NCBI GenBank assembly: GCA_964016885.1
Contig: OZ024743.1
Span: forward strand, 364,498,001-364,562,000
Length of the DNA stretch: 64,000 bases
Reading direction: 5' to 3'
DNA from: Eledone cirrhosa
Lineage: Eukaryota
Part shown: positions 10,565 through 64,000 of the stretch, piece by piece
Position numbering within the stretch: the stretch's first letter is position 1
Layout: each line of letters begins with the position of its first letter
The notes under the pieces: model-generated
The model's input: only the letters and a program-made list of their open reading frames with translations
Database searches by the model: none
Told to the model about the DNA's origin: nothing
Program-made: the position numbers and the translations under genes

Positions 10565-12169
10565 TTAATCATCACTATCATCATTTAATGTCCAGTTTCC
10601 CTACTAGCAAGGGTTTGGAGGATTGTCCGCAGACCAGGTTGGTACTCAAAGTGAAGAGACTGACCCAGCAATGAGTCGAGAGTGCCTACATCTCGCATCC
10701 GTTCCCGCACCTGACCCAGTGCTCAAACACAATCCCATACACTAACAAATACATTTTATCATGACTCCAGCACTAGGGAATTTGTTGTGTCTTTCACATA
10801 GCTGAAGAGTTATCCTGATGACAGGTTTTTTTTATAGTTGGATACCGTTCCTATTACCAAACATTTTACAGAGTGTATTGTGTGCGGGTGTTAACTGAAG
10901 AGTCCTCTTACATTACGTCCTGTAATGATTTAGCAGAAAATATTTAGCTAAAAATGGGCTTGTTAATTCAAATGTTTATAGTGTCTTTACAAATCATTGG
11001 GAAAATTTGTAATATTGCAGTAAAAACTTCCCTTTTAATGTGATGCAATCACAGTATTGTTTTATACTTTTCAAGAATGCCTTACTAATAGATGTTAAGA
11101 GTTAATATAGATAAGAATATAGGGAGTAAAGGGGTGAGCAGTATGAGGTAGGGTTTGACCAAAAAGGAAGTAATGTAAGACATACAGTCCTTTCAGAAAA
11201 GTAGTGGAGCAATTTAAAAAATAGTATGCTGCTACAAAAAAAAAAAAGACATTCTTTCTCTCTCTCATAAACAGGCATTTGTTAAAAACACAATGGAAAT
11301 GCACTGCTAGCATTAACAAAAAAAAAATAATGCCTACTGGAATTCACCCAGCCTACTTTGTAAAATGGTACTGCCAGTGTTGTGATAAAATGCACCCTCC
11401 CTTTCAGTATTTGCTTTATCTCTCCCTGTCTGTGTTTGTATGAGTATGTATTTAAACTCAATGTGTATGTATGTGCATATAGAGATTCATGTATACAAAT
11501 TGTATTTTGATGTGGATGTATTATCTTTGATACCATACTTTGTGGTAGTTATGGTTTTTTGCAAAGTTTTCTTGCTGGATGCACTTACTATCAGCAACCA
11601 CTTTATAGTGTGGACTGGATGCATTATTTGTGCCACCAGCAGTGACTGCTTTCCTAAATGGCTTGCCATTATTACAGCTTACAGAGCCCACACCTGCTCT
11701 GTGCAGTCTTATTTTATTCAGAGTAACTAAACTTCTAGGTGGGCTACCTTCCCCCATGGCTTATAGAGCCGACATCTACCTCTAAAGCTGCTGCCACAAT
11801 AAAATGCATCCAATACACTATAAATTTGTTGGTATTTTAAGGGCATCCAGTCAGTGAAACCCTTCCAAAAATGGAATGCACATGTAAGACATGGTCCTCT
11901 GATTTATCCAGGAAAACAGTAACTGTAAATAAGAACTGACTGGGCCCACAGCAACCCATCCAACCCATCCAACCTATGACTGCATGGAAATTGCATGTAA
12001 AATGATGATGAAATGTGTAAATGTGTTTATGTGTAGATATGTGCATTTAGAGGGTTATGAATTCATATATGCATCCAAGCTTTTCATTATGGGCATGTGT
12101 TTCACCAAGATTTTAAGTGTATGTTAATTGATATATATCTAAAATATTTCATAAAAGCAATAATATAAT

Positions 12170-12352
12170 TGTTTCTACTTTAGGCACAAGGCCAGCAATT
12201 ACCCAGTGCATTACTGGTACTTTATTTCATCGACCCCGTAAGGATGAAAGGCAAAGTCAACCTCGGCAGGATTTGAACTCAGATCGTAAAGGGACGTAAC
12301 TATGCTGGAAAGCATGGCGTCCGACGCTCTACCGATACTGCCAATCCACCGT
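12170..12352 (-). mobile_element. Full-length tRNA-derived Nin-domain SINE (monomer of the family expanded at 50634-59520)
   Basis: A box TGGCAGTATCGG, B box GAGTTCAAATCC, core GCCTTTCATCCTTACGGGGTCGATGAAATAAAGTACCAG. 18-bp TSD taaaagcaataatataat at 12152 and 12353. Confidence 0.9.
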
Positions 12353-21982: not shown

Positions 21983-22325
21983 AGGCACATGGCTTAGTGG
22001 TTAGAGCATTGGCCTTGCAATCGAAAGGTTGTGAGTTCAATTCTCAGACCGGGTGATGTGTTGTTTCCTTGAGCAAGACACTTTATTTCACATTGCTCCA
22101 GTTTACTCAGCTGTAGAAATGAGATGCTAGGGATTGGGGTCCCTATCATTCCACTACAAAGTGGTCATGGAGGTGCCACGGCAAAAAAGCACCCAGCACT
22201 CACTGTAAATGAGGTTGGTGTTAGGAAGGGCATCCAGCTGTAGAAATCAAGCCAGCATCAGTTCCTGTCCCACCCTTGCAAGCAGGGAAAAAGTGGACAT
22301 AAAATGAAAATGAAAATGATGATGA
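21981..22325 (+). mobile_element. tRNA/CORE-like/RTE-tail SINE, second young copy
   Basis: Head nearly identical to the 17233 copy; preceded by a (TA)n tract at about 21932-21980. Confidence 0.85.
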
Positions 22326-22584
22326 TATATGTATGTCAGGTCACTCTTAAGTGCTACTGGTAACATGTAAACCAGTACAACCTGTCGCATGGTCGGCTCA
22401 TCGGCGACTAAACTGGCAACCCCACCAAGTTTATTTGGTGAGGAGGGTGATTTTGGACACTCTGCAGGACAAAAAACAAAACCTGACAAAGGGCGGAAGA
22501 ACTCATAAGAGTCAATGGCTATCCAAAAATGTGTAAATATATATATACACATGTATGTATGTGTATGTATATATGTGTGTATAT

Positions 22585-25500
22585 GCCTGGGGTGTCAGGG
22601 AGGGGCATGTACCTCTGTAAGGGGGAGGGGGGGCTAGCCATGCCCTTTTCAGTCCTGCATTGGGTCCCACCTGACACTCAGCTCTCACCTGTGGCCCTAA
22701 GAAGCTGTAGCATGCGACAGCGGCCACACCCCTGTAAACTGCCTTGGCTGGCGGGCCGAACCAGGCTGAGGATAGTCGGACAGGTCGCTGTGCACTGGCC
22801 CTCCCACTATAAACCTTTCCTGCACAGGTTTCTTCTTTAGCGTGCACTCCCAAAGCCCTGCGGCGATGGGCGAGAGGCGGAAGTAACCTCTGGGAGTTGC
22901 CAGTCTCAAACCCACATGTAGGCGGCCTGGATGCGCAAGTCATTCTCCTCCTGACCCTGGGATGACAGGAGATCAGGCATTCCACTGGGCAACTGAGCAG
23001 CCCTTTTCAGGGGAGCACTGCTCACCCTCGCACGAGGAGAGGGGCGATAAGAGGAGCCCTAACCTAACCAAATGCTCGTCCCACACAAAGCTGGCGGTTT
23101 TACCCTTCAAAGCCGTTGAAACCAACATAATAGAAAGAAGTACTTGATTCTTGGTGCATGGAATGTGCTCACCCTCATGGATAGGGAAATCTCCTTGAGG
23201 CCAGAGAGAAGAACTGCCCTCATCGCGAGGGAATTAGCTCGCTACCAGATCGACATAGCGAGACCAGACTCACCGAAGAAGGATCAATAGCAGATCTGAA
23301 AGGAGGCTACACATTCTTCTGGAAGGGCAATGCAAAGGACGAGGACAGAATCCACGGGGTAGGCCTGGCCATCAGGACTTGGCTCTGCAAGCAAATACCA
23401 GACCTCCCAACACCTGTGAGTGAGCGGCTGATGAAGCTCCACTTCCCCCTCAACCCATCTCGGCATGTCACAGTCATCAGTGCGTACGCCCCCCCCACTA
23501 TCATCAGCAGTGATGAAAAAAAGGATGCTTTCTACAGGGAACTCAACGCACTCGTGAAGGGCGTCCCCCAAGCGATAAATTCATCCTACTGGAGGACTTC
23601 AATGCAAGAGTCGGGTCTGACAGCAGCAACTGGAGAGGCGTGCTGGGATCTCATGGCACAGGGAAACTGAACTCTAATGGCCTCATACTGTTGAGTTTCT
23701 GCGCCGAGAACAACCTCACGATCACCAGCACACCAGAGCATCATGATGCGTTCGCGCAAGATCTGGACGGCTGGCTGACTGCTCATGGACCACTGACCGG
23801 ACCCCCAACTCAACAGTAGGACCAGTTCAGGTTGCTGGTGACAGAGTCAGCCAAGGCAACCATCGGGCCGAAGAAGAGAGTCCACCAGGACTGGTTTGAT
23901 GAAAACGATGGGCACATCAGACAACTCCTGGACGAGAAGAGGAGGGCTTTCATTGAGTGGCAGAATGACAGCTCCTCCACTTCGAAGCGCAACCGCTTCA
24001 AGCACCCCCAGAAGCAGACCCAAGCAGCGCTACGCAGAATGTAGGAAGAGTGGTGGGAAAAGAAGGCCAAAGGAGTCGAGAGATATGCTGACACAAAGAA
24101 CTTCAAGATGTTCTTCAGCACCATCGGGGACGTCTACCGACTCCCCCAAGCCCGTCACTACACCGATCCTCTCAGCTGACGGCTCGACCCTGATGAAGGA
24201 GAAGAGCAGCATCAACTCGAAGTGGAGAGAGCACTTCAGCAACCTGCTCAACAGGCCCTCCACTGTCAACCCTGCCGCCCTGGACCAGGTCCCACAGAAA
24301 CCCGTAGTCGATCGAAATGATCTTCTCTGTACGTCAGGTGCAGGAGAAGTGTGTCGAGCAGAACATGGACTTCTTTGCTGTCTTCATAGACTTGACGAAA
24401 GCCTTTGAGACTGTCAACAGGGAGGTCCTCTGATCGATCCTGTCGAAGTTTGGATGCCCGACAAAGTTTGTGAACCATATACGGCAATTCCATGACGACA
24501 TGACCGTTCAGGTGCGCTCGGGCGGAGAAGCATTGGAGCCGTCCGGAATCACCAACTGCGTCAAGCAAGGATGCGTGCTGGCTCCTGTCCTCTTCAACCT
24601 GTTCTTCAGCTGTGTGCTCAATCATGCCGTCAGGGACCTCGAGCACGGAGTGTATCTGCAAGACAGACTGGACGGCTCCCTGTTTGACCTGCAGTGCCTG
24701 ACGGCCTAGACAAGGACCGTGCAGAAGATCGCCCTGGAGGCACTTTTTGCTGACGACTGTGTCCTCATAGCCTACAGGGAGTCTGTCCTCCAAGTCATCG
24801 TCAACAAGTTCGCGGAGGCCTCCTGCCTCTTTGGTCTCACAATTAGCCTTGGCAAGACTGAGGTCCTGTTCCAGCCTGCACCTGCCTCCATTGCCCACCC
24901 TCCTTCCAACTCCATCGGAGGCACCCAGTTAGAGACGGTGGACGACTTCAAGTACCTCGGCAAGAAGCCTCGACAAGGAGATAAACGGCAGGATCTGCAA
25001 GGCCAGTCAAGCCCTTGGCCGCCCGAGGACACGCGTCCTGAACCAGCACAACATCAGGTAGTCCACCAAGCTCAAGGTGTACAGGGCCGTTGTTCTCACC
25101 AGCCTCCGCTCCGGATGTGAGACATGGACCCTGTACAGAAGGCACCTGAAGCAGCTGGAACGGTTCCACATGCGCAGCCTGTGGTCAATCATGAACATCA
25201 AATGGCAGGACAAGGTCTCCAACATCGAAGTTCTTGACATGGCTGAGACAACCAGTGTCAAAGCTATGATACTGAAGAGCCAACTTCGATGGGTGAGACA
25301 TGTCATCCAGATGGACAATCACAGGCTTCCGAAGCAACTGATGTATGGGGAAGTCTGTTCGGGGAAACGAAGCGGGGCAGGCCTCTCAAGAGGTTCAAAG
25401 ACTGCGTGAAGTCCAGTATCAACAACACTGGAATCGCCCCAAAACAACGAGTCTCATGCTTAGGACAGGACTGAGTGGCGAGCCCTTACCAGACGCGCCA

Positions 25501-25717
25501 AAGATTCTTTTGAAGAGAAGAGACGGGCAGAGGTCACCAAGTCCCGTGAAAGGAGGAGAAAGGCATCAACAGCTGCCCCAAGCGATTCTGGTCTCTTCCC
25601 TTGCCCCACTGTCCCTGGACCAGCAAGTCAAGGATTGGCCTCCACAGCCACCTTCGTGCCCACGGCAGACAGGAACTGAAATAAAGATGTCATCATCGTT
25701 TACGATGGACAACCAAG
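22585..25717 (+). mobile_element. RTE-BovB-like LINE, near full length but internally deleted and pseudogenised
   Basis: 5' UTR; APE motifs LILGAWNV, ERRTALIARELARYQIDIA, SAYAP and LEDFNARVG; RT motifs DLTKAFETVNRE, VKQGCVLAPVLFNLFF and LFADD; C-terminal CPHC...SHLRAH. Visibly GC-rich and flanked by TA/CA microsatellite. Confidence 0.92.
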
Positions 25718-25748
<31 letters not shown>

Positions 25749-25935
25749 ATGTATATATACACACATATATATATATACACACATATATATATACACACAC
25801 ACAATGTATATATACACACATATATATAGACATACACACGTATACACAAATACACACACACATGTATACACACACGTATATACACATACATATATATATA
25901 TATACACACACACACATACATACATACATACATAT
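25718..25935. repeat. Compound (TA)n/(CA)n/(TACA)n microsatellite
   Basis: Read directly from the sequence. Other (TA)n tracts lie at about 14076-14118 and 63490-63511. Confidence 0.95.
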
Positions 25936-28271
25936 CATCATCATCGTTTAATGTCTATTTTCCATGTTAACATGGGTTAGATGGGATTGTCCCATTCAGA
26001 GGCAAGTTGGGTTGTATGACCGTGTCTTGCTCATATATAGGACTGTTTCTGGCTGGTTTTCTACTGCCAGATGCCTTTCCTAACGCCAACCACATTTACA
26101 GTGTGTGCTGGGTGCTATATACACACACACACGATCATCATCGTTTAATGCATCTTCCACGTTAGCATGGGTTAGACGGGAATTGTCCCACTTGAGGCAA
26201 GATTGGTCGGGTGACCATGTCTTGCTCATATAGGACTATCTGGCAGGTTTTCTACGGCTGGATGCCCTTCCTAACACCAACCACATTTACAGTGTGGACG
26301 GAGTTTTTTACCGTGTTACCTACACGGCTACATTACAGCATGGACTGCGTTATTCCATTTGGTTGTAGTGGCGCTGATAATGTTAGAATGCAATGTGTCT
26401 TTGGAAAGATGGTTGCAGCGAGATTGGGCAGTGTGATTTGTAGTTTTTGTAGTAGGTGACCACCGCTTAAGGTTTCTTCAAAAAGGATCCGCCTAAGTTA
26501 CAGAGTCATTTACACATATGTGTTTGTGCATAGAACAATGTGAAAAAGACAGAAGTCAGAGGTAAGTAGTTAATTAGTTCATTGTTTTACGATTGTTTCA
26601 GAGGGTCGATTGAGCATGGGAGATCGATGTATTGACTAGCAAAGTAGTGGTTAGGCTACTACCTATTTCTAGTCTCGAAATTTAAGAATAAAAGTTCTAC
26701 TTAGTAATATAAATATGCTCCTTAATATTATTTAACAAAAATATAGATGTCATGTTTGATATATTTATATATGTGTCTATCGTTTTATAATTTTATAATA
26801 AATGCTCAAATTTATTCCTTGGAATCTTTCTTTGATATTTTCTGACATGACATCTATATATTTTTTCCCCAAATCACATCCTATTATCCTATATTTCCCA
26901 TGAAATACCCAGTATTTGAAGGGATTTAATAAATTATTATTTTATTACGACAGTATTTGTAACATAATTTAACAAAAGTTTGTATATCAAATTACGCTGG
27001 AGGAGTTTAATTTAAATACAAACTCTTTAAAATGAGTGGTACTGTTTCATAGAACCAGAGGAATATTTGGGCAGATTGGTATCAAAAAGGTTAAAAAAAA
27101 AAGAACACACTGGAGAACGTAGCCCTATATACACTATCTAATAAAAAACACGATGGTCACAGCTAACCTGAGTAAATAACAGTGCGTGTGTTTTGCACTA
27201 TGATGTGTTGTTTCTTGATTCTAAGAAAATTGAAATGTGGGTAACCTAGAACCATATCTAAAAGAGGCTAATTAGAAGAGTCACAAGAACATTGGATTAA
27301 AGGCATTACAGTATTCATTCTGGCTCTCTAAGCTGAGTTTAAATTCTATGGACAATTTTGCCTCTTATTCTTTCGTGATAAAACATAAATCCAGGATGAT
27401 TGATTAATGGAATTGTGAGAGCATGAGGGAGAATACCTTATAATAACTGTTCTGGCTCTATGCTTTCCGAGTTCAAATCCTGTCCAGTCTCTGTAAAAAT
27501 GAGAGGACTGGGTCCAGGCTTCCTATCATTAAAATACCATAGAAATCTATGAGATGCAACCTATGCAGCATACCTCAAGGGGATTAGGACTAAGTTTAGT
27601 AATCCTTTGTCATAAATACATCAATATCCCACATTTACTTATATGACAAGTTTATGACCTAAATTAAAAATATTCATCAATTTCCAATAAAATCTATAAT
27701 TAGTTCATTAAAATTTATTTTATCTAGATGTTTTATTTTAAAAATATTGAAATGTATTTTAATGATCTAATGCATTTTTAAAAATCTAACATTAATATTA
27801 ACCCTTTTGACATCAAGCTCCTGGTTCCATGATGCAAAGCTATTCATATTTTTCTAAAAAAAAAACCTTCCACCATAGTTTTATGGAAGAACTTTTTAAA
27901 TCCTGCACTGCAAGAAATAGCATTATTAGCATGATATTTTTGTAAAATACAAAACAGCGCTAAAACTGTATCACATTAAAGTCTTTAGTTTACTGCAAAT
28001 TTTCACAACCTGTCCACTAGTAAAGATGTTATAAATATTTAAATTAACACCCCGTTTTTAGATATTTTCTACTAAATCATTACAAGATGTTAAGTGTTAA
28101 TTTGTGCCATAAACTTTAGCTTAATAATGAAAAGGTTAGTTATATTACTAAATCCCTTCAAATTCTTGATTTTCAAAAATATTTGAAAATCAAAGGCAAC
28201 GCCTTTCATTAGAAATATGGAGACAGAAGAGTTAAATGTTTAAAAAGAAATCAGAAAGAATAAAACTTTAC

Positions 28272-31391: not shown

Positions 31392-31537
31392 CTTTAAAGG
31401 CTTCAGTAGCACCAGGAGCCTTGTTCTTATCAGGATGCATTTTTAATGCTAATTTTCTGTATGCTTTTTTCAAATCAACATCTGTTGCATCCTTTGGGAC
31501 ACCAAGAATTTCATAATAATCTTTACATTTTTTAACT
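31392..31537 (-). CDS. DNAJB12: DNAJB12/14-like J-domain exon ([48 protein letters not shown])
   Basis: Acceptor ttatttcag and donor G|gtaagc; 146 nt, phase 2 to 1. Contains the HPD motif and [15 protein letters not shown], typical of DNAJB12/14. Confidence 0.97.
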
Positions 31538-36279: not shown

Positions 36280-36469
36280 CTTTTGACAGCTATCAACTGA
36301 TCCTCTGTATAATCATCAGCTGCCTTTCCAGTGTGGCCTGAATTGGTTTTCTCTGAGCGATTATTATTTCTGGCAGCTTTTTCTTTGTGTACATTGTTAT
36401 CTGCACCATCACCACTTTGTCTGCGACCAGCAGTACTACCATTTAATTGGCTCAGCTTCTCCATAAGGT
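36280..36469 (-). CDS. DNAJB12: DNAJB12/14-like internal exon (linker before the J-domain, DLMEKLSQ...YTEDQLIAVKR)
   Basis: Acceptor ttttttcacag and donor AG|gtttgc; 190 nt, phase 1 to 2. YTEDQLIAVKR resembles the DNAJB12/14 pre-J segment and splices in frame to the J-domain exon. Confidence 0.9.
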
Positions 36470-50010: not shown

Positions 50011-50633
50011 TTGAGAGGGCTATGGTGACCTAAAGTATGATCTAAAACTTTGTAGTGAATGCATGAGCAAAGGCGTCACTTCCGCAAAAGTGTGACGTGC
50101 GTGAATACTTAAACCGAACAGTTTAGTTGCTGCTAGTATTTCAGCCTGCCAAGACCTGTCTAGTGCTCCTATCGCCATCAGCAACTCAGGACATTATTTT
50201 TACTAGCAGAAAACCACCCTCAGGGTGGTTTTCTGCTAGCATGTGTAGTGTGCATATTGATATTATACAAAAATATATATGCATTTAGATACGATACATC
50301 AAATAAAATCGTAATTGAGAATATGCACATAAATTGAAGAGAGACTGTGACACTCTTCTGCAATCAGTAAAGTAATCCATGATACATTTAAAAAAGATGA
50401 TATTATATATAAACTGCATTAAGAGAAAATTAGCGACGGAAATATATGAACGTTTTTATAAGCGATGTAATAAGTTTTATAATATAATGGGCACTAACCG
50501 GAAGTGTTGACATTTGGAAATTTTAAAGAAGTGAATCTTGAAATAAGCAATAAAATTAATTATATTTAATCAAGAGTTATGAAATTTAGTACACAAATTA
50601 TGTAATATTCATTCATTATTTATTCAAAGTAAA

Positions 50634-53600
50634 GGCGGTGGATTGGCAGTATCGGTAGAGGGCGGTGGATTGGTAGTATCGGTAGAGGGCGGTGGATTGG
50701 TAGTATCGGTAGAGGGCGGTGGATTGGTAGTATCGGTAGAGGGCGGTGGATTGGTAGTATCGGTAGAGGGCGGTGGATTGGTAGTATCGGTAGAGGGCGG
50801 TGGATTGGTAGTATCGGTAGAGGGCGGTGGATTGGTAGTATCGGCAGTATCGGTAGAGGGCGGTGGATTGGTAGTATCGGTAGAGGGCGGTGGATTGGTA
50901 GTATCGGTAGAGGGCGGTGGATTGGTAGTATCGGTAGAGGGCGGTGGATTGGTAGTATCGGTAGAGGGCGGTGGATTGGTAGTATCGGTAGAGGGCGGTG
51001 GATTGGTAGTATCGGTAGAGGGCGGTGGATTGGTAGTATCGGTAGAGGGCAGTGGATTGGTAGTATCGGTAGAGGGCAGTGGATTGGTAGTATCGGTAGA
51101 GGGCAGTGGATTGGTAGTATCGGTAGAGGGCAGTGGATTGGTAGTATCGGTAGTATCGGTAGAGGGCGGTGGATTGGTAGTATCGGTAGAGGGCGGTGGA
51201 TTGGTAGTATCGGTAGAGGGCGGTGGATTGGTAGTATCGGTAGAGGGCGGTGGATTGGTAGAGGGCGGTGGATTGGTAGTATCGGTAGAGGGCGGTGGAT
51301 TGGTAGTATCGGTAGAGGGCGGTGGATTGGCAGTATCGGTAGAGGACGGTGGATTGGCAGTATCGGTAGAGGGCGGTGGATTGGTAGTATCGGTAGAGGG
51401 CGGTGGATTGGCAGTATCGGTAGAGGGCGGTGGATTGGTAGTATCGGTAGAGGGCGGTGGATTGGTAGAGGGCGGTGGATTGGTAGTATCGGTAGAGGGC
51501 GGTGGATTGGTAGTATCGGTAGAGGGCGGTGGATTGGCAGTATCGGTAGAGGTCGGTGGATTGGCAGTATCGGTAGAGGGCGGTGGATTGGCAGTATCGG
51601 TAGAGGGCGGTGGATTGGTAGTATCGGTAGAGGGCGGTGGATTGGTAGTATCGGTAGAGGGCGGTGGATTGGTAGTATCGGTAGAGGGCGGTTGATTGGT
51701 AGTATCGGTAGAGGGCGGTGGATTGGTAGTATCGGTAGAGGGCGGTGGATTGGTAGTATCGGTAGAGGGCGGTGGATTGGTAGTATCGGTAGAGGGCGGT
51801 GGATTGGTAGTATCGGTAGAGGGCGGTGGATTGGTAGTATCGGTAGAGGGCGGTGGATTGGTAGTATCGGCAGTATCGGTAGAGGGAGGTGGATTGGTAG
51901 TATCGGTAGAGGGCGGTGGATTGGTAGTATCGGTAGAGGGCGGTGGATTGGTAGTATCGGTAGAGGGCGGTGGATTGGTAGTATCGGTAGAGGGCGGTGG
52001 ATTGGTAGTATCGGTAGAGGGCAGTGGATTGGTAGTATCGGTAGAGGGCAGTGGATTGGTAGTATCGGTAGAGGGCGGTGGATTGGTAGTATCGGTAGAG
52101 GGCGGTGGATTGGTAGTATCGGCAGTATCGGTAGAGGGCGGTGGATTGGTAGTATCGGTAGAGGGCGGTGGATTGGTAGTATTGGTAGAGGGCGGTGGAT
52201 TGGTAGTATCGGTAGAGGGCGGTGGATTGGTAGTATCGGTAGAAGGCGGTGGATTGGTAGTATCGGTAGAGGGCGGTGGATTGGTAGTATCGGTAGAGGG
52301 CGGTGGATTGGTAGTATCGGTAGAAGGCGGTGGATTGGTAGTATCGGTAGAGGGCGGTGGATTGGTAGTATCGGTAGAAGGCGGTGGATTGGTAGTATCG
52401 GCAGTATCGATAGAGGGCGGTGGATTGGTAGTATCGGTAGAGGGCGGTGGATTGGTAGTATCGGTAGAGGGCGGTGGATTGGTAGTATCGGTAGAGGGCG
52501 GTGGATTGGTAGTATCGGCAGTATCGGTAGAGGGCGGTGGATTGGTAGTATCGGTAGAAGGCGGTGGATTGGTAGTATCGGTAGAGGGCGGTGGATTGGT
52601 AGTATCGGTAGAGGGCGGTGGATTGGTAGTATTGGTAGAGGGCGGTGGATTGGTAGTATCGGTAGAGGGCGGTGGATTGGTAGTATCGGTAGAAGGCGGT
52701 GGATTGGTAGTATCGGTAGAGGGCGGTGGATTGGTAGTATCGGTAGAGGGCGGTGGATTGGTAGTATCGGTAGAAGGCGGTGGATTGGTAGTATCGGTAG
52801 AGGGCGGTGGATTGGTAGTATCGGTAGAAGGCGGTGGATTGGTAGTATCGGCAGTATCGATAGAGGGCGGTGGATTGGTAGTATCGGTAGAGGGCGGTGG
52901 ATTGGTAGTATCGGTAGAGGGCGGTGGATTGGTAGTATCGGTAGAGGGCGGTGGATTGGTAGTATCGGCAGTATCGGTAGAGGGCGGTGGATTGGTAGTA
53001 TCGGTAGAAGGCGGTGGATTGGTAGTATCGGTAGAGGGCGGTGGATTGGTAGTATCGGTAGAGGGTGGTGGATTGGTAGTATCGGTAGAGGGCGGTGGAT
53101 TGGTAGTATCGGTAGAGGGCGGTGGATTGGTAGTATCGGTAGAAGGCGGTGGATTGGTAGTATCGGTAGAGGGCGGTGGATTGGTAGTATCGGTAGAGGG
53201 CAGTGGATTGGTAGTATCGGTAGAGGGAGGTGGATTGGTAGTATCGGTAGAAGGCGGTGGATTGGTAGTATCGGTAGAGGGAGGTGGATTGGTAGTATCG
53301 GCAGTATCGGTAGAGGGCGGTGGATTGGTAGTATCGGTAGAAGGCGGTGGATTGGTAGTATCGGTAGAGGGAGGTGGATTGGTAGTATCGGTAGAGGGCG
53401 GTGGATTGGTAGTATCGGTAGAGGGCGGTGGATTGGTAGTATCGGTAGAGGGCAGTGGATTGGTAGTATCGGTAGAGGGCAGTGGATTGGTAGTATCGGT
53501 AGAGGGCAGTGGATTGGTAGTATCGGTAGAGGGCGGTGGATTGGTAGTATCGGTAGAGGGCGGTGGATTGGTAGTATCGGCAGTATCGGTAGAGGGCGGT

Positions 53601-56600
53601 GGATTGGTAGTATCGGTAGAAGGCGGTGGATTGGTAGTATCGGTAGAGGGCGGTGGATTGGTAGTATCGGTAGAGGGCGGTGGATTGGTAGTATCGGTAG
53701 AGGGCGGTGGATTGGTAGTATCGGTAGAGGGCGGTGGATTGGTAGTATCGGTAGAGGGCGGTGGATTGGTAGTATCGGTAGAGGGCGGTGGATTGGTAGT
53801 ATCGGTAGAGGGCAGTGGATTGGTAGTATCGGTAGAGGGCAGTGGATTGGTAGTATCGGTAGAGGGCAGTGGATTGGTAGTATCGGTAGAGGGCGGTGGA
53901 TTGGTAGTATCGGCAGTATCGGTAGAGGGCGGTGGATTGGTAGTATCGGTAGAGGGCGGTGGATTGGTAGTATCGGTAGAGGGCGGTGGATTGGTAGTAT
54001 CGGTAGAGGGCGGTGGATTGGTAGTATCGGCAGAGGGCGGTGGATTGGTAGTATCGGCAGAGGGCGGTGGATTGGTAGTATCGTAAGAGGGCGGTGGATT
54101 GGTAGTATCGGCAGAGGGCGGTGGATTGGTAGTATCGGCAGAGGGCGGTGGATTGGTAGTATCGGCAGAGGGCGGTGGATTGGTAGTATCGGCAGAGGGC
54201 GGTGGATTGGTAGTATCGGTAGAGGGCGGTGGATTGGTAGTATCGGTAGTATCGGCAGAGGGCGGTGGATTGGTAGTATCGGCAGAGGGCGGTGGATTGG
54301 TAGTATCGGCAGTATCGGTAGAGGTCGGTGGATTGGTAGTATCGGCAGTATCGGTAGAGGGCGGTGGATTGGTAGTATCGGTAGAGGGCGGTGGATTGGT
54401 AGTATCGGTAGAGGGCGGTGGATTGGTAGTATCGGTAGAGGTCGGTGGATTGGTAGTATCGGTAGTATCGGCAGAGGGCGGTGGATTGGTAGTATCGGTA
54501 GTATCGGCAGAGGGCGGTGGATTGGTAGTATCGGTAGAGGGCGGTGGATTGGTAGTATCGGTAGAGGTCGGTGGATTGGTAGTATCGGTAGAGGGCGGTG
54601 GATTGGTAGTATCGGTAGAGGGCGGTGGATTGGTAGTATCGGTAGAGGGCGGTGGATTGGTAGTATCGGTAGAGGGCGGTGGATTGGTAGTATCGGTAGA
54701 GGGCGGTGGATTGGTAGTATCGGTAGAGGGCGGTGGATTGGTAGTATCGGTAGAGGGCGGTGGATTGGTAGTATCGGTAGAGGGCGGTGGATTGGTAGTA
54801 TCGGTAGAGGGCGGTGGATTGGTAGTATCGGTAGAGGGCGGTGGATTGGTAGTATCGGTAGAGGGCGGTGGATTGGTAGTATCGGTAGAGGGCGGTGGAT
54901 TGGTAGTATCGGTAGTATCGGCAGAGGGCGGTGGATTGGTAGTATCGGCAGTATCGGTAGAGGGCGGTGGATTGGTAGTATCGGCAGTATCGGTAGAGGG
55001 CGGTGGATTGGTAGTATCGGTAGAGGGCGGTGGATTGGTAGTATCGGTAGAGGGCAGTGGATTGGTAGTATCGGCAGAGGGCGGTGGATTGGTAGTATCG
55101 GTAGTATCGGCAGAGGGCGGTGGATTGGTAGTATCGGCAGTATCGGTAGAGGGCGGTGGATTGGTAGTATCGGTAGAGGGCGGTGGATTGGTAGTATCGG
55201 TAGAGGTCGGTGGATTGGTAGTATCGGTAGTATCGGCAGAGGGCGGTGGATTGGTAGTATCGGTAGTATCGGCAGAGGGCGGTGGATTGGTAGTATCGGT
55301 AGAGGGCGGTGGATTGGTAGTATCGGCAGAGGGCGGTGGATTGGTAGTATCGGTAGAGGGCGGTGGATTGGTAGTATCGGCAGAGGGCGGTGGATTGGTA
55401 GTATCGGTAGAGGGCGGTGGATTGGTAGTATCGGTAGAGGGCGGTGGATTGGTAGTATCGGTAGAGGGCGGTGGATTGGTAGTATCGGTAGAGGGCGGCG
55501 GATTGGCAGTATCGGTAGAGGGCGGTGGATTGGTAGTATCGGTAGAGGGCGGTGGATTGGTAGTATCGGTAGAGGGCGGTGGATTGGTAGTATCGGTAGA
55601 GGGCGGTGGATTGGTAGTATCGGTAGAGGGCGGTGGATTGGTAGTATCGGTAGAGGGCGGTGGATTGGTAGTATCGGTAGAGGGCGGTGGATTGGTAGTA
55701 TCGGTAGAGGGCGGTGGATTGGTAGTATCGGTAGAGGGCGGTGGATTGGTAGTATCGGTAGAGGGCGGTGGATTGGTAGTATCGGTAGAGGGCGGTGGAT
55801 TGGTAGTATCGGTAGAGGGCGGTGGATTGGTAGTATCGGTAGAGGGCGGTGGATTGGTAGTATCGGTAGAGGGCGGTGGATTGGTAGTATCGGTAGAGGG
55901 CGGTGGATTGGTAGTATCGGTAGAGGGCGGTGGATTGGTAGTATCGGTAGAGGGCGGTGGATTGGTAGTATCGGTAGAGGGCGGTGGATTGGTAGTATCG
56001 GTAGAGGGCGGTGGATTGGTAGTATCGGTAGTATCGGCAGAGGGCGGTGGATTGGTAGTATCGGTAGAGGGCGGTGGATTGGTAGTATCGGCAGAGGGCG
56101 GTGGATTGGTAGTATCGGCAGAGGGCGGTGGATTGGTAGTATCGGTAGTATCGGTAGAGGGCGGTGGATTGGTAGTATCGGCAGTATCGGTAGAGGGCGG
56201 TGGATTGGTAGTATCGGCAGAGGGCGGTGGATTGGTAGTATCGGCAGTATCGGTAGAGGGCGGTGGATTGGTAGTATCGGTAGAGGGCGGTGGATTGGTA
56301 GTATCGGCAGTATCGGTAGAGGGCGGTGGATTGGTAGTATCGGTAGAGGGCGGTGGATTGGTAGTATCGGCAGTATCGGTAGAGGGCGGTGGATTGGTAG
56401 TATCGGCAGTATCGGTAGAGGGCGGTGGATTGGTAGTATCGGCAGTATCGGTAGAGGGCGGTGGATTGGTAGTATCGGTAGAGGGCGGTGGATTGGTAGT
56501 ATCGGCAGAGGGCGGTGGATTGGTAGTATCGGCAGTATCGGTAGAGGGCGGTGGATTGGTAGTATCGGCAGAGGGCGGTGGATTGGTAGTATCGGCAGTA

Positions 56601-58978
56601 TCGGTAGAGGGCGGTGGATTGGTAGTATCGGTAGAGGGCGGTGGATTGGTAGTATCGGCAGTATCGGTAGAGGGCGGTGGATTGGTAGTATCGGTAGAGG
56701 GCGGTGGATTGGTAGTATCGGCAGTATCGGTAGAGGGCGGTGGATTGGTAGTATCGGTAGAGGGCGGTGGATTGGTAGTATCGGCAGTATCGGTAGAGGG
56801 CGGTGGATTGGTAGTATCGGTAGAGGGCGGTGGATTGGTAGTATCGGCAGTATCGGTAGAGGGCGGTGGATTGGTAGTATCGGCAGTATCGGTAGAGGGC
56901 GGTGGATTGGTAGTATCGGCAGTATCGGTAGAGGGCGGTGGATTGGTAGTATCGGTAGAGGGCAGTGGATTGGTAGTATCGGTAGAGGGCGGTGGATTGG
57001 TAGTATCGGCAGAGGGCGGTGGATTGGTAGTATCGGCAGTATCGGTAGAGGGCGGTGGATTGGTAGTATCGGTAGAGGGCGGTGGATTGGTAGTATCGGT
57101 AGAGGGCGGTGGATTGGTAGTATCGGTAGAGGGCGGTGGATTGGTAGTATCGGTAGAGGGCGGTGGATTGGTAGTATCGGTAGAGGGCGGTGGATTGGTA
57201 GTATCGGTAGAGGGCGGTGGATTGGTAGTATCGGTAGAGGGCGGTGGATTGGTAGTATCGGTAGTATCGGCAGAGGGCGGTGGATTGGTAGTATCGGTAG
57301 AGGGCGGTGGATTGGTAGTATCGGCAGAGGGCGGTGGATTGGTAGTATCGGCAGAGGGCGGTGGATTGGTAGTATCGGTAGAGGGCGGTGGATTGGTAGT
57401 ATCGGCAGTATCGGTAGAGGGCGGTGGATTGGTAGTATCGGCAGTATCGGTAGAGGGCAGTGGATTGGTAGTATCGGTAGAGGGCGGTGGATTGGTAGTA
57501 TCGGTAGAGGGCGGTGGATTGGTAGTATCGGTAGAGGGCAGTGGATTGGTAGTATCGGTAGAGGGCGGTGGATTGGTAGTATCGGTAGAGGGCAGTGGAT
57601 TGGTAGTATCGGCAGAGGGCGGTGGATTGGTAGTATCGGCAGAGGGCGGTGGATTGGTAGTATCGGTAGAGGGCGGTGGATTGGTAGTATCGGCAGAGGG
57701 CGGTGGATTGGTAGTATCGGCAGTATCGGTAGAGGGCGGTGGATTGGTAGTATCGGTAGAGGGCGGTGGATTGGTAGTATCGGTAGAGGGCGGTGGATTG
57801 GTAGTATCGGTAGAGGGCAGTGGATTGGTAGTATCGGCAGAGGGCGGTGGATTGGTAGTATCGGCAGAGGGCGGTGGATTGGTAGTATCGGTAGAGGGCG
57901 GTGGATTGGTAGTATCGGTAGAGGGCGGTGGATTGGTAGTATCGGCAGAGGGCGGTGGATTGGTAGTATCGGTAGAGGGCGGTGGATTGGTAGTATCGGC
58001 AGAGGGCGGTGGATTGGTAGTATCGGTAGAGGGCGGTGGATTGGTAGTATCGGCAGAGGGCGGTGGATTGGTAGTATCGGCAGAGGGCGGTGGATTGGTA
58101 GTATCGGTAGAGGGCGGTGGATTGGTAGTATCGGTAGAGGGCGGTGGATTGGTAGTATCGGCAGAGGGCGGTGGATTGGTAGTATCGGTAGAGGGCGGTG
58201 GATTGGTAGTATCGGCAGAGGGCGGTGGATTGGTAGTATCGGTAGAGGGCGGTGGATTGGTAGTATCGGTAGAGGGCAGTGGATTGGTAGTATCGGTAGA
58301 GGGCGGTGGATTGGTAGTATCGGCAGTATCGGTAGAGGGCGGTGGATTGGTAGTATCGGTAGAGGGCGGTGGATTGGTAGTATCGGTAGAGGGCGGTGGA
58401 TTGGTAGTATCGGTAGAGGGCAGTGGATTGGTAGTATCGGTAGAGGGCGGTGGATTGGTAGTATCGGCAGTATCGGTAGAGGGCGGTGGATTGGTAGTAT
58501 CGGTAGAGGGCGGTGGATTGGTAGTATCGGTAGAGGGCGGTGGATTGGTAGTATCGGTAGAGGGCAGTGGATTGGTAGTATCGGTAGAGGGCGGTGGATT
58601 GGTAGTATCGGCAGTATCGGTAGAGGGCGGTGGATTGGTAGTATCGGTAGAGGGCGGTGGATTGGTAGTATCGGTAGAGGGCGGTGGATTGGTAGTATCG
58701 GTAGAGGGCGGTGGATTGGTAGTATCGGTAGAGGGCAGTGGATTGGTAGTATCGGTAGAGGGCGGTGGATTGGTAGTATCGGCAGAGGGCGGTGGATTGG
58801 TAGTATCGGCAGTATCGGTAGAGGGCGGTGGATTGGTAGTATCGGCAGTATCGGTAGAGGGCGGTGGATTGGTAGTATCGGTAGAGGGCGGTGGATTGGT
58901 AGTATCGGTAGAGGGCGGTGGATTGGTAGTATCGGCAGTATCGGTAGAGGGCGGTGGATTGGTAGTATCGGTAGAGGG
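50634..58978 (+). repeat. 8.3-kb tandem array of a 27-bp unit GGCGGTGGATTGGTAGTATCGGTAGAG (about 300 units, with 18- and 36-bp variants)
   Basis: Read directly; the copy number is estimated from length. The unit equals the SINE 5' head and the last unit runs on into the SINE body. Confidence 0.98.
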
Positions 58979-59520
58979 TCGGACGCCATGCTTTCCAGCA
59001 TAGTTACGTCCCTTTAGGATCTGAGTTCAAATCCCGCCGAGGTTAACTTTGCCTTTCATCCTTACGGGGTCGATAAAATAAAGTACCAGTAATGCACTGG
59101 GTAATTGCTGGCCTTGTACCTGAAGTAGAAACAATTATTATGGATTGGCAGTATCGGTAGAGAGTCGGACACCATGCTTTGAAGCATAGAGTTACGTCCC
59201 TTTATGATCTGAGTTCAAATCCCGCCGAGGTTAACTTTGCCTTTCATCCTTACGGGGTCGATGAAATAAAGTACCAGTAATGTACTGGGTAATTGCTGGC
59301 CTTGTGCCAAAAGAAGAAAATTATTATATTATGATATAAGGGCAGTGGATTGGCAGTATCGGTAGAGGGCCAGACGCCATGTTTTGCAGCATAGAGTTAC
59401 GCCCCTTTATGGTCTGAGTTCAAATCCCGCAGAGGTTAACTTTGCCTTTCATCCTTACAGGGTCGATAAAATAAAGTACCAGTAATGCCAAGAGTAGCTG
59501 CCAAGAGTAGAAACAATTAT
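58950..59520 (+). mobile_element. Three head-to-tail Nin-domain SINE copies (58950-59140, 59141-59325, 59340-59520)
   Basis: Each copy has an A box, GAGTTCAAATCC, the Nin core and an AT-rich tail. Copy 3 is flanked by duplicated tatattatgatata. Confidence 0.92.
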
Positions 59521-60382
59521 ATTATGATATACGAAGCAAGGACTTTACTTCTTCAACGTGAGTAACTGCAACACTCATGGAGTTGAACATTATTTCCCAC
59601 TGACCTGCTCGCATACAACTTTGTGTCACATATTCTGCATCAGTCATGCTTGTCACTTGACTTAATAAATTCCTATGTTTGTTTTCAATCAAAACGCCTT
59701 CCGATTTATTATACACCTTTTTATTTAGTTATTTGAGGAATATTCCACGTCGGGTCACCAATTGTAGCAAGATGATCAGCAGTGAAATAAAAAGATGTAT
59801 AATAAATCAGAAGGCGCTTTGATTGAAAACAAACATGGGAATTTATTAAGTCAAGTGACAAGCATGGCTAATGCAGAATATGTGACAAAGGTGTATGTGA
59901 GCGGGTCAGTGGGAAATAATGTTCAAGTCCATGAGTGTTGCAAATATTACTCACATTGAAGAAGTAAAGTCCTTGCTTCGTATATAAGAATAATGTCCCG
60001 AGTTACTAATGGAAATAGGAGAAGGAGCACTAGATAGGTCTTGGCAGGCTAAAATACTAGCAGCAACTAAACTGTTCGGTTTAAGTATTCACGCTCGTCA
60101 CACTTGGGTGGAAGTGACGCCACCGAGCCTTTGCGCATACAACTTCACTAGGTGGTGCTATTAAGTTAAACATGACCTAGTCCAATACTAGTCAAAAGTT
60201 ATTAAAGTAAGCATTTGGGTGTACTTCAGAATTTTGTATTTCCAGACAAACCCCTGAAGACAAGACATTCAGAGCAGACTGAAGCCTCTGTCTCTCACTT
60301 GGTTGAGAAGTAAATTGAGTTTAACAATCTCAATGGATGAGAATATAAAACTATACTACTGCACTTCACTATCAGATTTGGG

Positions 60383-62470
60383 TTAATATCCAATGAGAAT
60401 AAATGGGAGAAAGACAGTCTCCCCCACATCGATCCAATAGATGGACCAGCAGTGCAAGTTGAAGGTAGTATAAGTAAGGCAATGAAAGATATGAAGATGG
60501 GCAAGGCAACTTGGCCTTCGGAAATAGTTGCTGAAATGCTGAAAGAATCTGGAATGGTGGGACACACTATGGTCACCCGGATAGTTAACCAAGTCATACA
60601 GAATGGGGTCGTACCGAAGGACTGGCGTAGCAGCATCATCATTAACTGCTACAAGGGTAAAGGAGATGCCCTAGATAGGGGTAACTATAGAGGCATTAAA
60701 TTAATTGACCAGGTCATGAAGGTCACAGAAAAAGTAATAGCGCAACTAATCAGAGAGCGAATTGATCTAGATGAAATGCAGTTTGGGTTTGTGTCAGGTA
60801 AAAGTACCACAGACGCTCTTTTCATTGTACGACAACTACAGGAGAAGTACCTAGCTAAAAGTAAACCCCTATACTTAGCTTTTGTTGACTTGGAGAAAGC
60901 CTTTCCGAGTCCCACGCCCCATTATCTGGTGGGCTCTCAGAAAACTAGGTGTTGATGAATGGCTTGTGAGAGCTATACAAGCCATGTATAAAGAAACAGT
61001 CAGCAAGGTTAGAATTAACAACAAATATAGTGAAGAGTTTAGCATAAAAGTTGGTGTTCATCAGAACTCTGTCCTTAGCCCCCTCCTATTTATTATTGCC
61101 CTTCAGGCTATAACAGAAGAGTTCAAGACCGGCTGCCCATGGGAACTCCTATACGCTGATGATCTAACACTTATAGCTGAATCAATGGCTGAACTAGAGA
61201 AGAAATTCCAAACATGGAAGCATGGCCTAGAATCAAAAGGCCTTAAAATTAACCTGTCTAAGACTAAAATTCTAGTATGTAGGAAGGAAAATCGGGCACT
61301 GGTCCCATCTGGGAAATGCCCATGCTCAGTGTGTCGGGAAGGAGTAGGCAGAAACTCCATTTTATGTTCCAAATGCAAAGTATGGGTGCATAAAAGATGT
61401 AGTGGGATCACAGGTAAGTTAACTAAGAATATAGATTTTATATGTGGCCAGTGCTCAGGTACAATAAGTAGCAGCAAGTGCCCACTGAATACTAACTAAT
61501 TCCATTGCACAGATGGTTCTATAGAAATAGTGGACACTTTCCGCTACCTAGGTGACAAAATCAGCAGTGGCTGAGGGTGCTCTGAAAGTACATTAGCTAG
61601 AGTCAGAACGGGATGGAAAAAGTTAAGACAGCTTATACCACTATTGGCCACTAAAGGTTTCTCTCTAAAAATGAAAGGCAGGCTGTATGATGCCTGCATA
61701 CGAACAGCAATATTACATGGCAGTGAGACTTGGGCATTGTGTGCAGAGGATCTACGCAGAGTGGAGAGGAATGAAGCTTGCATGCTCCGTTGGATGTGTA
61801 ATAGTAATATACGTGAACGGCAAAGCATAAATGAACTAAGTGAGAAATTAGGAATAAGAGGGATCAGATGCTGTTTACTCGAGAGAAGACTAGGTTAGTC
61901 TGGTCATGTGATGCGCATGAAAGACGACAGCTGTATAAAAAAGTGCAGGGCGATTAAAATAGACGGTAACCACGGAGTAGGCAGACCCAGAAAAACCTGG
62001 GACGACTTGATAAATTCCGACCTCACACCTCTCCAAGACAATGTCACTGGACCAAGATCTTTGGCGCTACGCAGTAATACAGAAGACCCGCCTTGCCTAA
62101 GTGCAAAGCGAAACCTAGTCAGTAGGCACCTCTTAACCAAAATACACCTCCGTCCCACTACCCCCACCCCATCCACACCACCCCTTTCGATGTAATGTTA
62201 TGTTGGTACCACAACATCCAGTCCTAAACAAATGAGGCCGTGTAGGTGTCACAACAAAAAAACACATCCACGCTGTAATGTGGCCGTGTAGGTAACATGG
62301 TAAAAACCTCCCAGTTCACACTGTAAAGGTGGTTGGTATTAGGAAGGGCATCCAGCCGTAGAAAACCAGCCAGACTATATGAGCAAGACAACCAATCTTG
62401 CCTCAAGTGGGAAAATTCCTGTCCAAAACCATGCTCGAGTGGAAGATGGACGTTAAACGATGATGATGAT
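60383..62470 (+). mobile_element. 5'-truncated RTE LINE with a PHD-like Cys/His finger inside the RT
   Basis: CYKGKGDALDRGNYRGIKL, QFGF, FVDLEKAF, GVHQNSVLSP and LYADD motifs, then CSVC...CSKC..WVHKRC...CGQC, then FRYLGD; (GAT)n tail. Confidence 0.93.
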
Positions 62471-63857: not shown

Positions 63858-64000
63858 AACTTAACTTTGCCTTTCATCCTTACGGGGGTCGATAAAATAA
63901 AGTACCAGTAATACACTGGGTTATTGCTGGCCTTGTGCCAACAGTAGAAACAATTATATATATAGGTTGATTGGCAGTATCGGTAGAGGGTCGGACGCCA
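63858..64000 (+). mobile_element. Nin-domain SINE 3' half followed immediately by the head of another copy
   Basis: ttaactttgcctttcatccttacgggggtcgat...gaaacaattata, then gattggcagtatcggtagagggtcggacgcca at the window edge. Confidence 0.85.

What the first reader, a model, noticed from the sequence alone, without database searches (positions are those of the whole stretch)
50634..59140. A satellite arising from a SINE: the 27-nt A-box head of one SINE amplified about 300-fold, still attached to its body
Seen: the array unit is the first 27 nt of the SINE found as a monomer at 12170-12352. The first unit keeps the consensus TGGCAGTATCGG, most units carry TGGTAG, and the last continues into the B box, Nin core and tail. 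The element is therefore one 8.5-kb SINE with about 300 A boxes and one B box. Established: type 2 Pol III promoters use A and B boxes bound by TFIIIC, and satellites can derive from transposon parts. Inference: a first duplication of the head was followed by expansion through slippage or unequal exchange. The array might give staggered Pol III starts, or affect elongation or splicing of the host intron.
Basis: partly seen in the sequence, partly recalled or inferred. Interest (0 to 1): 0.8.

Follow-up and report, generated by a model that had tools for sequence, protein, structure and literature searches.

The report
SINE-head minisatellites spreading near chromosome ends
The first 27 bases of a small jumping element are repeated 293 times in front of its intact body inside a gene's intron; the genome holds hundreds of similar head arrays near chromosome ends, which likely grow by DNA slippage and likely pass units between neighbouring copies, with no function shown.

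Summary
Confirmed: 293 copies of a tRNA-type SINE's first 27 nt run into one body with a B box. Short-read depth fits about 150 copies of the commonest junction. The array lies antisense in a 34-kb intron of a DNAJB12-like gene.

Corrections: two more SINE copies follow. There is no target-site duplication, and about 80 nt of the flanking element are missing, so this is probably a rearranged locus rather than one intact SINE. The 'Nin core' is untested.

It is not unique. The genome has 7,762 head-head junctions against 11 in a body control. Most have a fixed 45-nt unit: 636 end hits, one array of at least 226 heads, 31 of 34 loci within 40 Mb of the largest contig's ends. Many sit inside their own target-site duplications, on bodies of every subfamily. 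Arrays under 1 Mb apart share rare variants (18 of 68 pairs, against 150 of 1,874).

Best reading: a SINE-derived satellite as described in squamates, seeded at an AGGG microhomology and grown at DNA level. The 45-nt class likely spreads by ectopic gene conversion. A function is unlikely.

The parts
50633..58974 (+). Tandem array of 293 SINE heads (positions +1 to +27); 27-, 36- and 18-nt units; G-rich strand
   Evidence: G4Hunter-type score 0.87
50633..50658 (+). First head: near full length (one G short), with the family's GGCAG
58948..59138 (+). Last head plus the only attached body: +1 at 58948, A-box-like 58960-58971, AGGG microhomology 58975-58978, hairpin 58988-59001, B box 59023-59035, tail from 59125
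   Evidence: box identity by recalled Pol III consensus
59141..59332 (+).
   Evidence: 92% to the monomer
59342..59525 (+). Third SINE copy with its own 16-nt target-site duplication
50202..50632 (+). High-copy host element, cut off at the array; other copies continue about 80 nt further
59526..60150 (.). Palindromic element; its mirror arm matches 50053-50202 and 59520-59580, which marks the original site split by the insertions
36280..36469 (-). Coding exon of the DNAJB12-like host gene that closes the intron holding the array (the intron runs from 36470 to window-equivalent 70354)
   Evidence: splice phases agree by inspection
31392..31537 (-). J-domain exon of the host gene
   Evidence: Pfam DnaJ E 4.6e-18; DNAJB12 E 4e-19
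12160..12352 (-). Ordinary monomer of the same SINE family

Best explanation
This is a tandem array of a SINE's first 27 bases attached to one SINE body, one of many head arrays in this genome, likely seeded by a join at a 4-base repeat, likely enlarged by DNA slippage and unequal exchange in a chromosome-end region, and probably without function. Shown: the head starts with AGGG and carries AGGG again at +28, exactly one unit apart. The locus has lost its target-site partner and the end of the element it sat in. Inferred (about 40%): one out-of-register join between two neighbouring SINE heads made both the deletion and the first doubled head, which fits the first head having C16 and the last T16. 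About as likely (40%) are a slip within one SINE plus a separate deletion. Shown: growth left local variant blocks and a duplicated 17-unit block. Inferred: the G-rich head is the unstable part and the distal position favours growth. For the commoner 45-nt arrays, inferred (about 65%): ordinary single-headed SINEs acquire arrays by ectopic gene conversion from nearby arrays, keeping their own flanks, target-site duplication and body.
For: Head-head junctions 7,762 against 11 for a body pattern of the same design. 45-nt arrays: 636 end hits, and the first 100 rows collapse to 66 loci. On C1, 31 of 34 lie within 40 Mb of an end, against 3 of 35 control copies (p 8e-13). The window is 14 Mb from the end of C4. 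Target-site duplications of 11 nt or more: 60 of 98 arrays and 59 of 111 monomers. Array bodies are scattered among monomer bodies: 42 changes for 59 rows, shuffled mean 47.9. Rare non-CpG variants are shared by 18 of 68 pairs under 1 Mb apart against 150 of 1,874 on different contigs; 7 of 2,000 shuffles reach this. In the 18 sharing pairs, flank scores are 7-12 on the left where a left flank was held and 7-32 on the right, and bodies are 58-98% identical. In 8 of 20 two-headed copies the junction unit has T44 while the body-attached head has C44; monomers have it in 11 of 131 (p 0.0007). For the window: missing target-site partner, missing host 3' end, block structure, read depth.
Against: The window's own seed cannot be fixed: its first head is near full length, so simple slippage in one SINE fits the junction equally. 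The conversion evidence comes from 45-nt arrays, not from this 27-nt array. The first sharing test with all variants at 5 Mb was not significant (79 of 1,000; 8 of 1,000 without C44T), and the 1- and 2-Mb thresholds were chosen afterwards. Sharing does not fall steadily with distance (26%, 14%, 18%, 26%, 9%). Some shared variants also occur in monomers (33G in 5 of 141, 8G in 3 of 80, 9A in 3 of 81). The tree has few columns and shows slight clustering of 45-nt bodies (13 of 500 shuffles as low). Loci sampled are weighted to C1 and C2. The G4Hunter-type score of 0.87 is moderate and no structure was tested.
Confidence: 0.7

Rival explanations
1. The first doubled head was made during retrotransposition: the reverse transcriptase reached the RNA's 5' end, slipped back to the AGGG at +28 and copied the head again. 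DNA-level growth and a separate deletion followed.
For: Of 27 loci with the 27-nt junction, 12 (by eye; one has a 38-nt double slip) have both heads inside a clean target-site duplication. In all 12 the outer head lacks +1 while the inner head has it, which slippage in genomic DNA cannot produce; 17 of 81 unselected monomers start at +1. These short copies lie in contig interiors as well, and bodies are of several subfamilies.
Against: The window array has no target-site duplication and needs a second event. For 45-nt arrays there is no microhomology at the junction, the distal bias is unexplained, and T44 in the junction unit differs from the body-attached head in 8 of 20 dimers.
Confidence: 0.3
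2. Multi-headed master copies are transcribed from an upstream A box and retrotranspose as such, so arrays are a SINE subfamily.
For: One fixed 45-nt junction at many loci; target-site duplications around whole arrays; shared T44 and T5 in internal units.
Against: Bodies do not form a lineage. Ordinary copies insert along the whole contig while 45-nt arrays are distal. Neighbours share variants in spite of different bodies.
Confidence: 0.1
3. The junction came from nested insertion: a new SINE inserted at or just before an older truncated head, so that the target-site duplication copied part of that head. Here the array's body would have inserted into the head of copy 2.
For: 8 of 27 junction loci show a head fragment repeated as target-site duplication (by eye); one grew to 4 heads. 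In the window, 22 nt at 50639-50660 recur at 59140-59161, both with C16.
Against: Target-site duplications of this family usually begin with an ATTAT-like word, which this one would not. The missing host end still needs a deletion.
Confidence: 0.1
4. The array is kept for a function: staggered Pol III starts, a TFIIIC-binding insulator, or control of DNAJB12-like transcription or splicing.
For: It lies in the host intron behind the first coding exon found; the G-rich strand is the template for the host gene; the last head and B box are intact.
Against: One B box for 293 heads. 0 AG and 1 GT on the host-sense strand. Hundreds of similar arrays follow chromosome position. No conservation evidence is available.
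Confidence: 0.07
5. The length is an assembly artefact.
For: No long read was available and no contig piece spans the array. The three informative runs are one sample.
Against: Depth ratios 113-164 against 152 expected, and 133-204 against 191. The flank-array junction is present at about single-copy depth. Substitution variants are clustered by region.
Confidence: 0.03

Closest known systems
SINE-derived satellites (sSat1-3) of squamate reptiles (PMC10702118; parts 1-4 of 5 of the text read)
   Same: Tandem units from part of a tRNA-related SINE; terminal unit runs on to the SINE's end; a few to hundreds of units (320 in cobra); one dominant unit across loci; alternating sub-variants; subtelomeric bias, stronger for long arrays.
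   Different: Units there are about 70-290 nt and often cover the B box or body. Here they are 27 or 45 nt, start exactly at +1 and leave out the B box. Both SINE ends and often the target-site duplication are kept, which is a minor form there. The parts read give no test of exchange between neighbouring loci. The host here is another animal; its repeats resemble octopus ones by recall only.
Alu-derived minisatellites and 5' partial-Alu duplications in human (PMC3389668, passages and section 3.4; Jurka and Gentles 2006 seen only as cited there)
   Same: Minisatellite-sized units from a SINE; initiation ascribed to short flanking direct repeats; 136 cases of a partial Alu duplicated at the 5' end of a full Alu; local expansion.
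   Different: Most are two-unit copies with varied boundaries, and 94% had no explained origin. Here one junction recurs at hundreds of loci and arrays reach hundreds of units.
G-rich hypervariable minisatellites such as CEB1 and CEB25 (PMC2673046, PMC3486850; search listing and abstract starts only)
   Same: G-rich strand, subtelomeric position, unit variants.
   Different: G-quadruplex formation and instability are shown there. Here only a moderate score (0.87) was computed and nothing was tested.

Membership tests
SINE-derived satellite (sSat) | Tandem unit derived from part of a SINE and shorter than it | tested here: met
   Unit equals +1 to +27 of a family with at least 57,880 exact heads
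SINE-derived satellite (sSat) | Terminal unit continues to the SINE's end | tested here: met
   Last head runs into body and tail, 95.7% to the monomer
SINE-derived satellite (sSat) | At least four middle units, homogeneous | tested here: met
   293 heads; 163 of 292 units identical
SINE-derived satellite (sSat) | Preference for subtelomeric regions | tested here: met
   Window 14 Mb from the end of a 379-Mb contig; 45-nt class 31 of 34 distal on C1. Contig ends taken as chromosome ends; short 27-nt dimers are not distal.
SINE-derived satellite (sSat) | Reported unit length of about 70-290 nt (descriptive range) | tested here: not met
   27 and 45 nt; hence a variant
SINE-derived satellite (sSat) | Copy-number variation at orthologous loci | not testable with these tools
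   No second genome or long reads held
tRNA-derived SINE | Short, high-copy, interspersed, 5'-truncated copies with target-site duplications and a simple tail | tested here: met
tRNA-derived SINE | A and B boxes, tRNA-related head | tested here: inconclusive
   Boxes fit a recalled consensus (A box with one mismatch). No tRNA from ARAGORN and no Rfam hit near threshold.
tRNA-derived SINE | Pol III transcription | not testable with these tools
   No RNA holder listed
Nin/Inv-domain SINE | Central domain alignable to Nin-DC or Inv | not testable with these tools
   No reference sequence found in text or in 4 of 5 supplements of PMC4758252; resemblance to the Inv part is recalled only
Single intact SINE insertion | Target-site duplication on both sides | tested here: not met
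   Left candidate has no partner within 3 mismatches in 113 kb; host element's 3' end missing

The most novel reading that the evidence does not exclude
SINE-head arrays behave as a hyperparasite of a SINE. A fixed 45-nt head junction spreads from locus to locus by ectopic gene conversion, using tens of thousands of resident SINE heads as landing pads, and turns ordinary copies into minisatellites only where recombination is high, near chromosome ends. The window's 293-unit array is an independent 27-nt founder of the same process. Because each converted copy keeps its own target-site duplication and body as a barcode, the dispersal of a young satellite can be traced locus by locus.
Probability: 0.45. 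Interest if true: 0.75.

Novelty: new variant of a known kind. Interest (0 to 1): 0.5.

Why it matters
The array alone is an example of a described class. The class around it matters more. How a young satellite comes to share one unit at hundreds of loci is open: the squamate paper invokes unequal recombination and concerted evolution, and the human study left 94% of origins unexplained. Here every locus carries its insertion scar and body subfamily, so retrotransposition, repeated origin and ectopic conversion make different predictions that can be tested with one more genome or population long reads. The arrays may also serve as markers of high-recombination regions and as variable-length markers.

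Tried and rejected
A DNA search of the genome with the monomer found nothing, because common words are skipped. ARAGORN and Rfam gave no tRNA match. Folding of the monomer RNA was not significant (z -1.66).

I considered that TAG in front of AGGG marks short re-copied remnants. Of 30 such loci, only 6 were real head duplications, so I dropped this.

I considered Pol III termination at the TTT after +45 as a source of recurrent junctions. Among the first 100 rows, no junction carried just one or two extra T; the main exception was a regional 50-nt unit. This gave no support.

No RNA holder was listed, which is no evidence on expression. The RAD-seq run X5 did not cover the array interior, which is uninformative.

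Open frames over the array are by-products of a stop-free unit. 91 of 101 listed frames of 75 aa or more outside the array were scanned with Pfam and gave only RT, PHD and DnaJ.

The Nin reference was not found; one supplement of PMC4758252 was not searched and may hold it. Paper searches found no report of such arrays in octopus or of conversion-driven spread; the library lacks most subscription papers. Three look-ups in earlier findings were empty. One script timed out and one stopped part-way (completed).

Full report
OBSERVATION. The array is there. Splitting 50634-58990 gives 293 heads; of 292 complete units 240 are 27 nt, 50 are 36 nt (a 9-nt internal duplication) and 2 are 18 nt, and 163 are identical. 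TRF agrees. The last head continues into a body 95.7% identical to the monomer at 12160-12352, with one B-box-like word at 59023. The family is large: 57,880 exact head matches, array units included, in a 3.0-Gb genome in which the window lies 14 Mb from the end of a 379-Mb contig. The family's 5' end is AGGG, so the unit can be read from +1 to +27 and is followed by AGGG at +28: a 4-base repeat exactly one unit apart (sequence, direct).

REALITY OF THE LENGTH. In three runs of one sample, single-copy flank pieces have depth 11.5/10.5, 8.5/8 and 3.6/3.9. A 43-nt array piece has 1446, 1350 and 424, ratios of 131, 164 and 113 against about 152 places in the assembly. The flank-array junction piece has depth 14.4, 8.8 and 5.5. 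This is a rough check of copy number, not of contiguity, and the sample may be the assembled one. Inside the array, variants are regional (GAA-ending units only at positions 58-107, GGCAGAG-ending units only from 122 on) and a 17-unit block with 7 non-majority units is duplicated, against at most 4 in 200 shuffles. That is the signature of local DNA-level turnover (inference).

CONTEXT. A J-domain exon at 31537-31392 matches DNAJB12. Recalled short motifs located an upstream exon at 36469-36280 and a first coding exon at window-equivalent 70487; the Atlas lists a DnaJ N-terminal cluster at 0.92 for the latter, with low recognition. Splice phases agree by inspection. The array is thus antisense in a 34-kb intron. 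On the host-sense strand it has 0 AG and 1 GT in 8,343 nt.

THE LOCUS IS REARRANGED. The 18 nt left of the array look like this family's target-site duplication but have no partner within 3 mismatches in 113 kb. They belong to a high-copy element at 50202-50632 whose other copies continue for about 80 nt; that end is absent here. The mirror arm of a palindromic element on the right matches 50053-50202 and 59520-59580, so the two flanks come from one original site and the lost stretch was probably a few hundred bases (inference). Head end and body end may therefore come from two SINEs.

IT IS ONE OF MANY. For the 27-nt junction, 194 of 211 matches are in the window, and 27 loci carry it next to a body. 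By eye, 12 have two heads inside a clean target-site duplication, 8 arise where a duplication covers an older truncated head, 6 are unclear and 1 is the window. A search for any head-head spacing of 20-50 nt gave 7,762 matches; the same design on the body gave 11. The common unit is 45 nt with one fixed junction: 636 end hits, whose first 100 rows collapse to 66 loci. One array has 141 heads in 6.6 kb and another at least 226 heads in the 10.6 kb examined, ending in one body. I parsed 141 monomers and 135 multi-head copies, 111 of them 45-nt, weighted to C1 and C2, with 50 of the fetched loci selected for one body type; these were left out of the tree.

MECHANISM. Four results bear on it. First, position: 31 of 34 45-nt loci on C1 lie within 40 Mb of an end, against 3 of 35 control copies (p 8e-13); array size falls with distance from the end (rho -0.31, p 0.006, n 78, with some arrays cut by the fetch). 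Second, insertion scars are kept: 60 of 98 arrays and 59 of 111 monomers have a duplication of 11 nt or more. Third, bodies of arrays are scattered among monomer bodies (42 changes for 59 rows, shuffled mean 47.9, 13 of 500 shuffles as low; few columns). Fourth, internal units are related between loci. T44 is the majority in 45% of 91 arrays but is present in 4% of 109 body-attached heads and 8% of 131 monomers; in 8 of 20 dimers the junction unit has T and the last head C. Rare non-CpG variants are shared by 18 of 68 pairs under 1 Mb apart and 150 of 1,874 pairs on different contigs; 7 of 2,000 shuffles reach this at 1 Mb and 2 of 2,000 at 2 Mb. Examples: 33G in four arrays at C2:7.6-9.0 Mb, 8G in four at C2:18.2-19.4 Mb, 9A in three at C1:433.3-434.0 Mb, with unrelated flanks and mostly different bodies. 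Against this, the first test at 5 Mb with all variants gave 79 of 1,000, the shorter thresholds were chosen afterwards, sharing is not monotonic with distance, and some variants occur in a few percent of monomers. Ectopic gene conversion from an array into a nearby SINE explains all four results; retrotransposition of multi-head masters explains only the second and the fixed junction. I put conversion at about 65% for the 45-nt class.

For the 27-nt class, the 12 clean dimers all lack +1 in the outer head while the inner head has it, which points to a slip of the reverse transcriptase at insertion (inference). The window's first head is near full length and the locus is rearranged, so its seed stays open: a join between two SINE heads at AGGG (about 40%), a slip within one SINE plus a deletion (about 40%), nested insertion or derivation from a 45-nt array (about 20%). 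The head is the G-richest part of the SINE (score 0.89 against at most 0.44 beyond +20), which may explain why only it expands, by analogy with CEB1 (abstract starts); this is untested.

FUNCTION. With one B box, only the last few A boxes could serve (recalled TFIIIC behaviour). No RNA data were available. Nothing here requires selection.

COMPARISON. The closest described system is the SINE-derived satellites of squamates (PMC10702118, parts 1-4 of 5 read): same architecture, similar sizes, same subtelomeric bias. Alu-derived minisatellites and 5' partial-Alu duplications are also in print (PMC3389668, passages and section 3.4; review PMC9659126, passages). Differences are the short unit starting at +1, the retained insertion scar and the neighbour sharing. 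Searches found no report of these; most subscription papers are not covered. PMC5804259 and PMC4758252 (passages) describe the Nin and Inv domains but gave no sequence to test against.

VERDICT. Real, correctly derived from the SINE head, a new variant of a known kind. Interest 0.5.

Noticed in passing
G000:C2:21,850,000-21,886,000 (L272, L232): A 45/50-nt head array with at least 226 heads in the 10.6 kb examined, ending in one body; pattern hits continue over about 33 kb, so it is larger than the window's array. The 50-nt unit also occurs at C2:18.4, 18.8 and 20.3 Mb.
   Followed up: partly
window 50202-50632; second copy 39195-38700; L256, L262, L199: A high-copy non-coding element with a terminal palindrome. 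This SINE family has inserted at nearly the same internal site in at least three copies (window, L262, L199).
   Followed up: partly
window 59526-60150: A palindromic element with arms of about 85% identity, whose left arm was split by the insertions.
   Followed up: partly
window 22200-26000 and 60300-62460: Broken reverse-transcriptase (LINE-type) remnants; the second has a PHD-like stretch after the RT domain.
   Followed up: no
L032, window-equivalent 75135-76802 and 73657-74099: Unrelated minisatellites just upstream of the host gene: 45 nt x 37 at 99% matches and 40 nt x 11, which fits a repeat-prone distal region.
   Followed up: no
G000:C1:429.96-429.99 Mb and C4:271.089 Mb: The same SINE head recurs at about 3.3-kb spacing (8 hits) and at about 200-nt spacing (4 hits): larger tandem duplications that contain whole SINEs.
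   Followed up: no
L177 (C19:8.0 Mb), L197 (C5:8.9 Mb), C1:6.74 Mb, C1:2.04 Mb: Minor head-array units of 41 and 37 nt.
   Followed up: no
window 58988-59001: A small hairpin whose stem is kept across body subfamilies while the loop varies; the 45-nt junction falls at the end of its 5' arm.
   Followed up: partly
window 63861-64000 and L031: Another tandem pair of this SINE with a clean target-site duplication.
   Followed up: no
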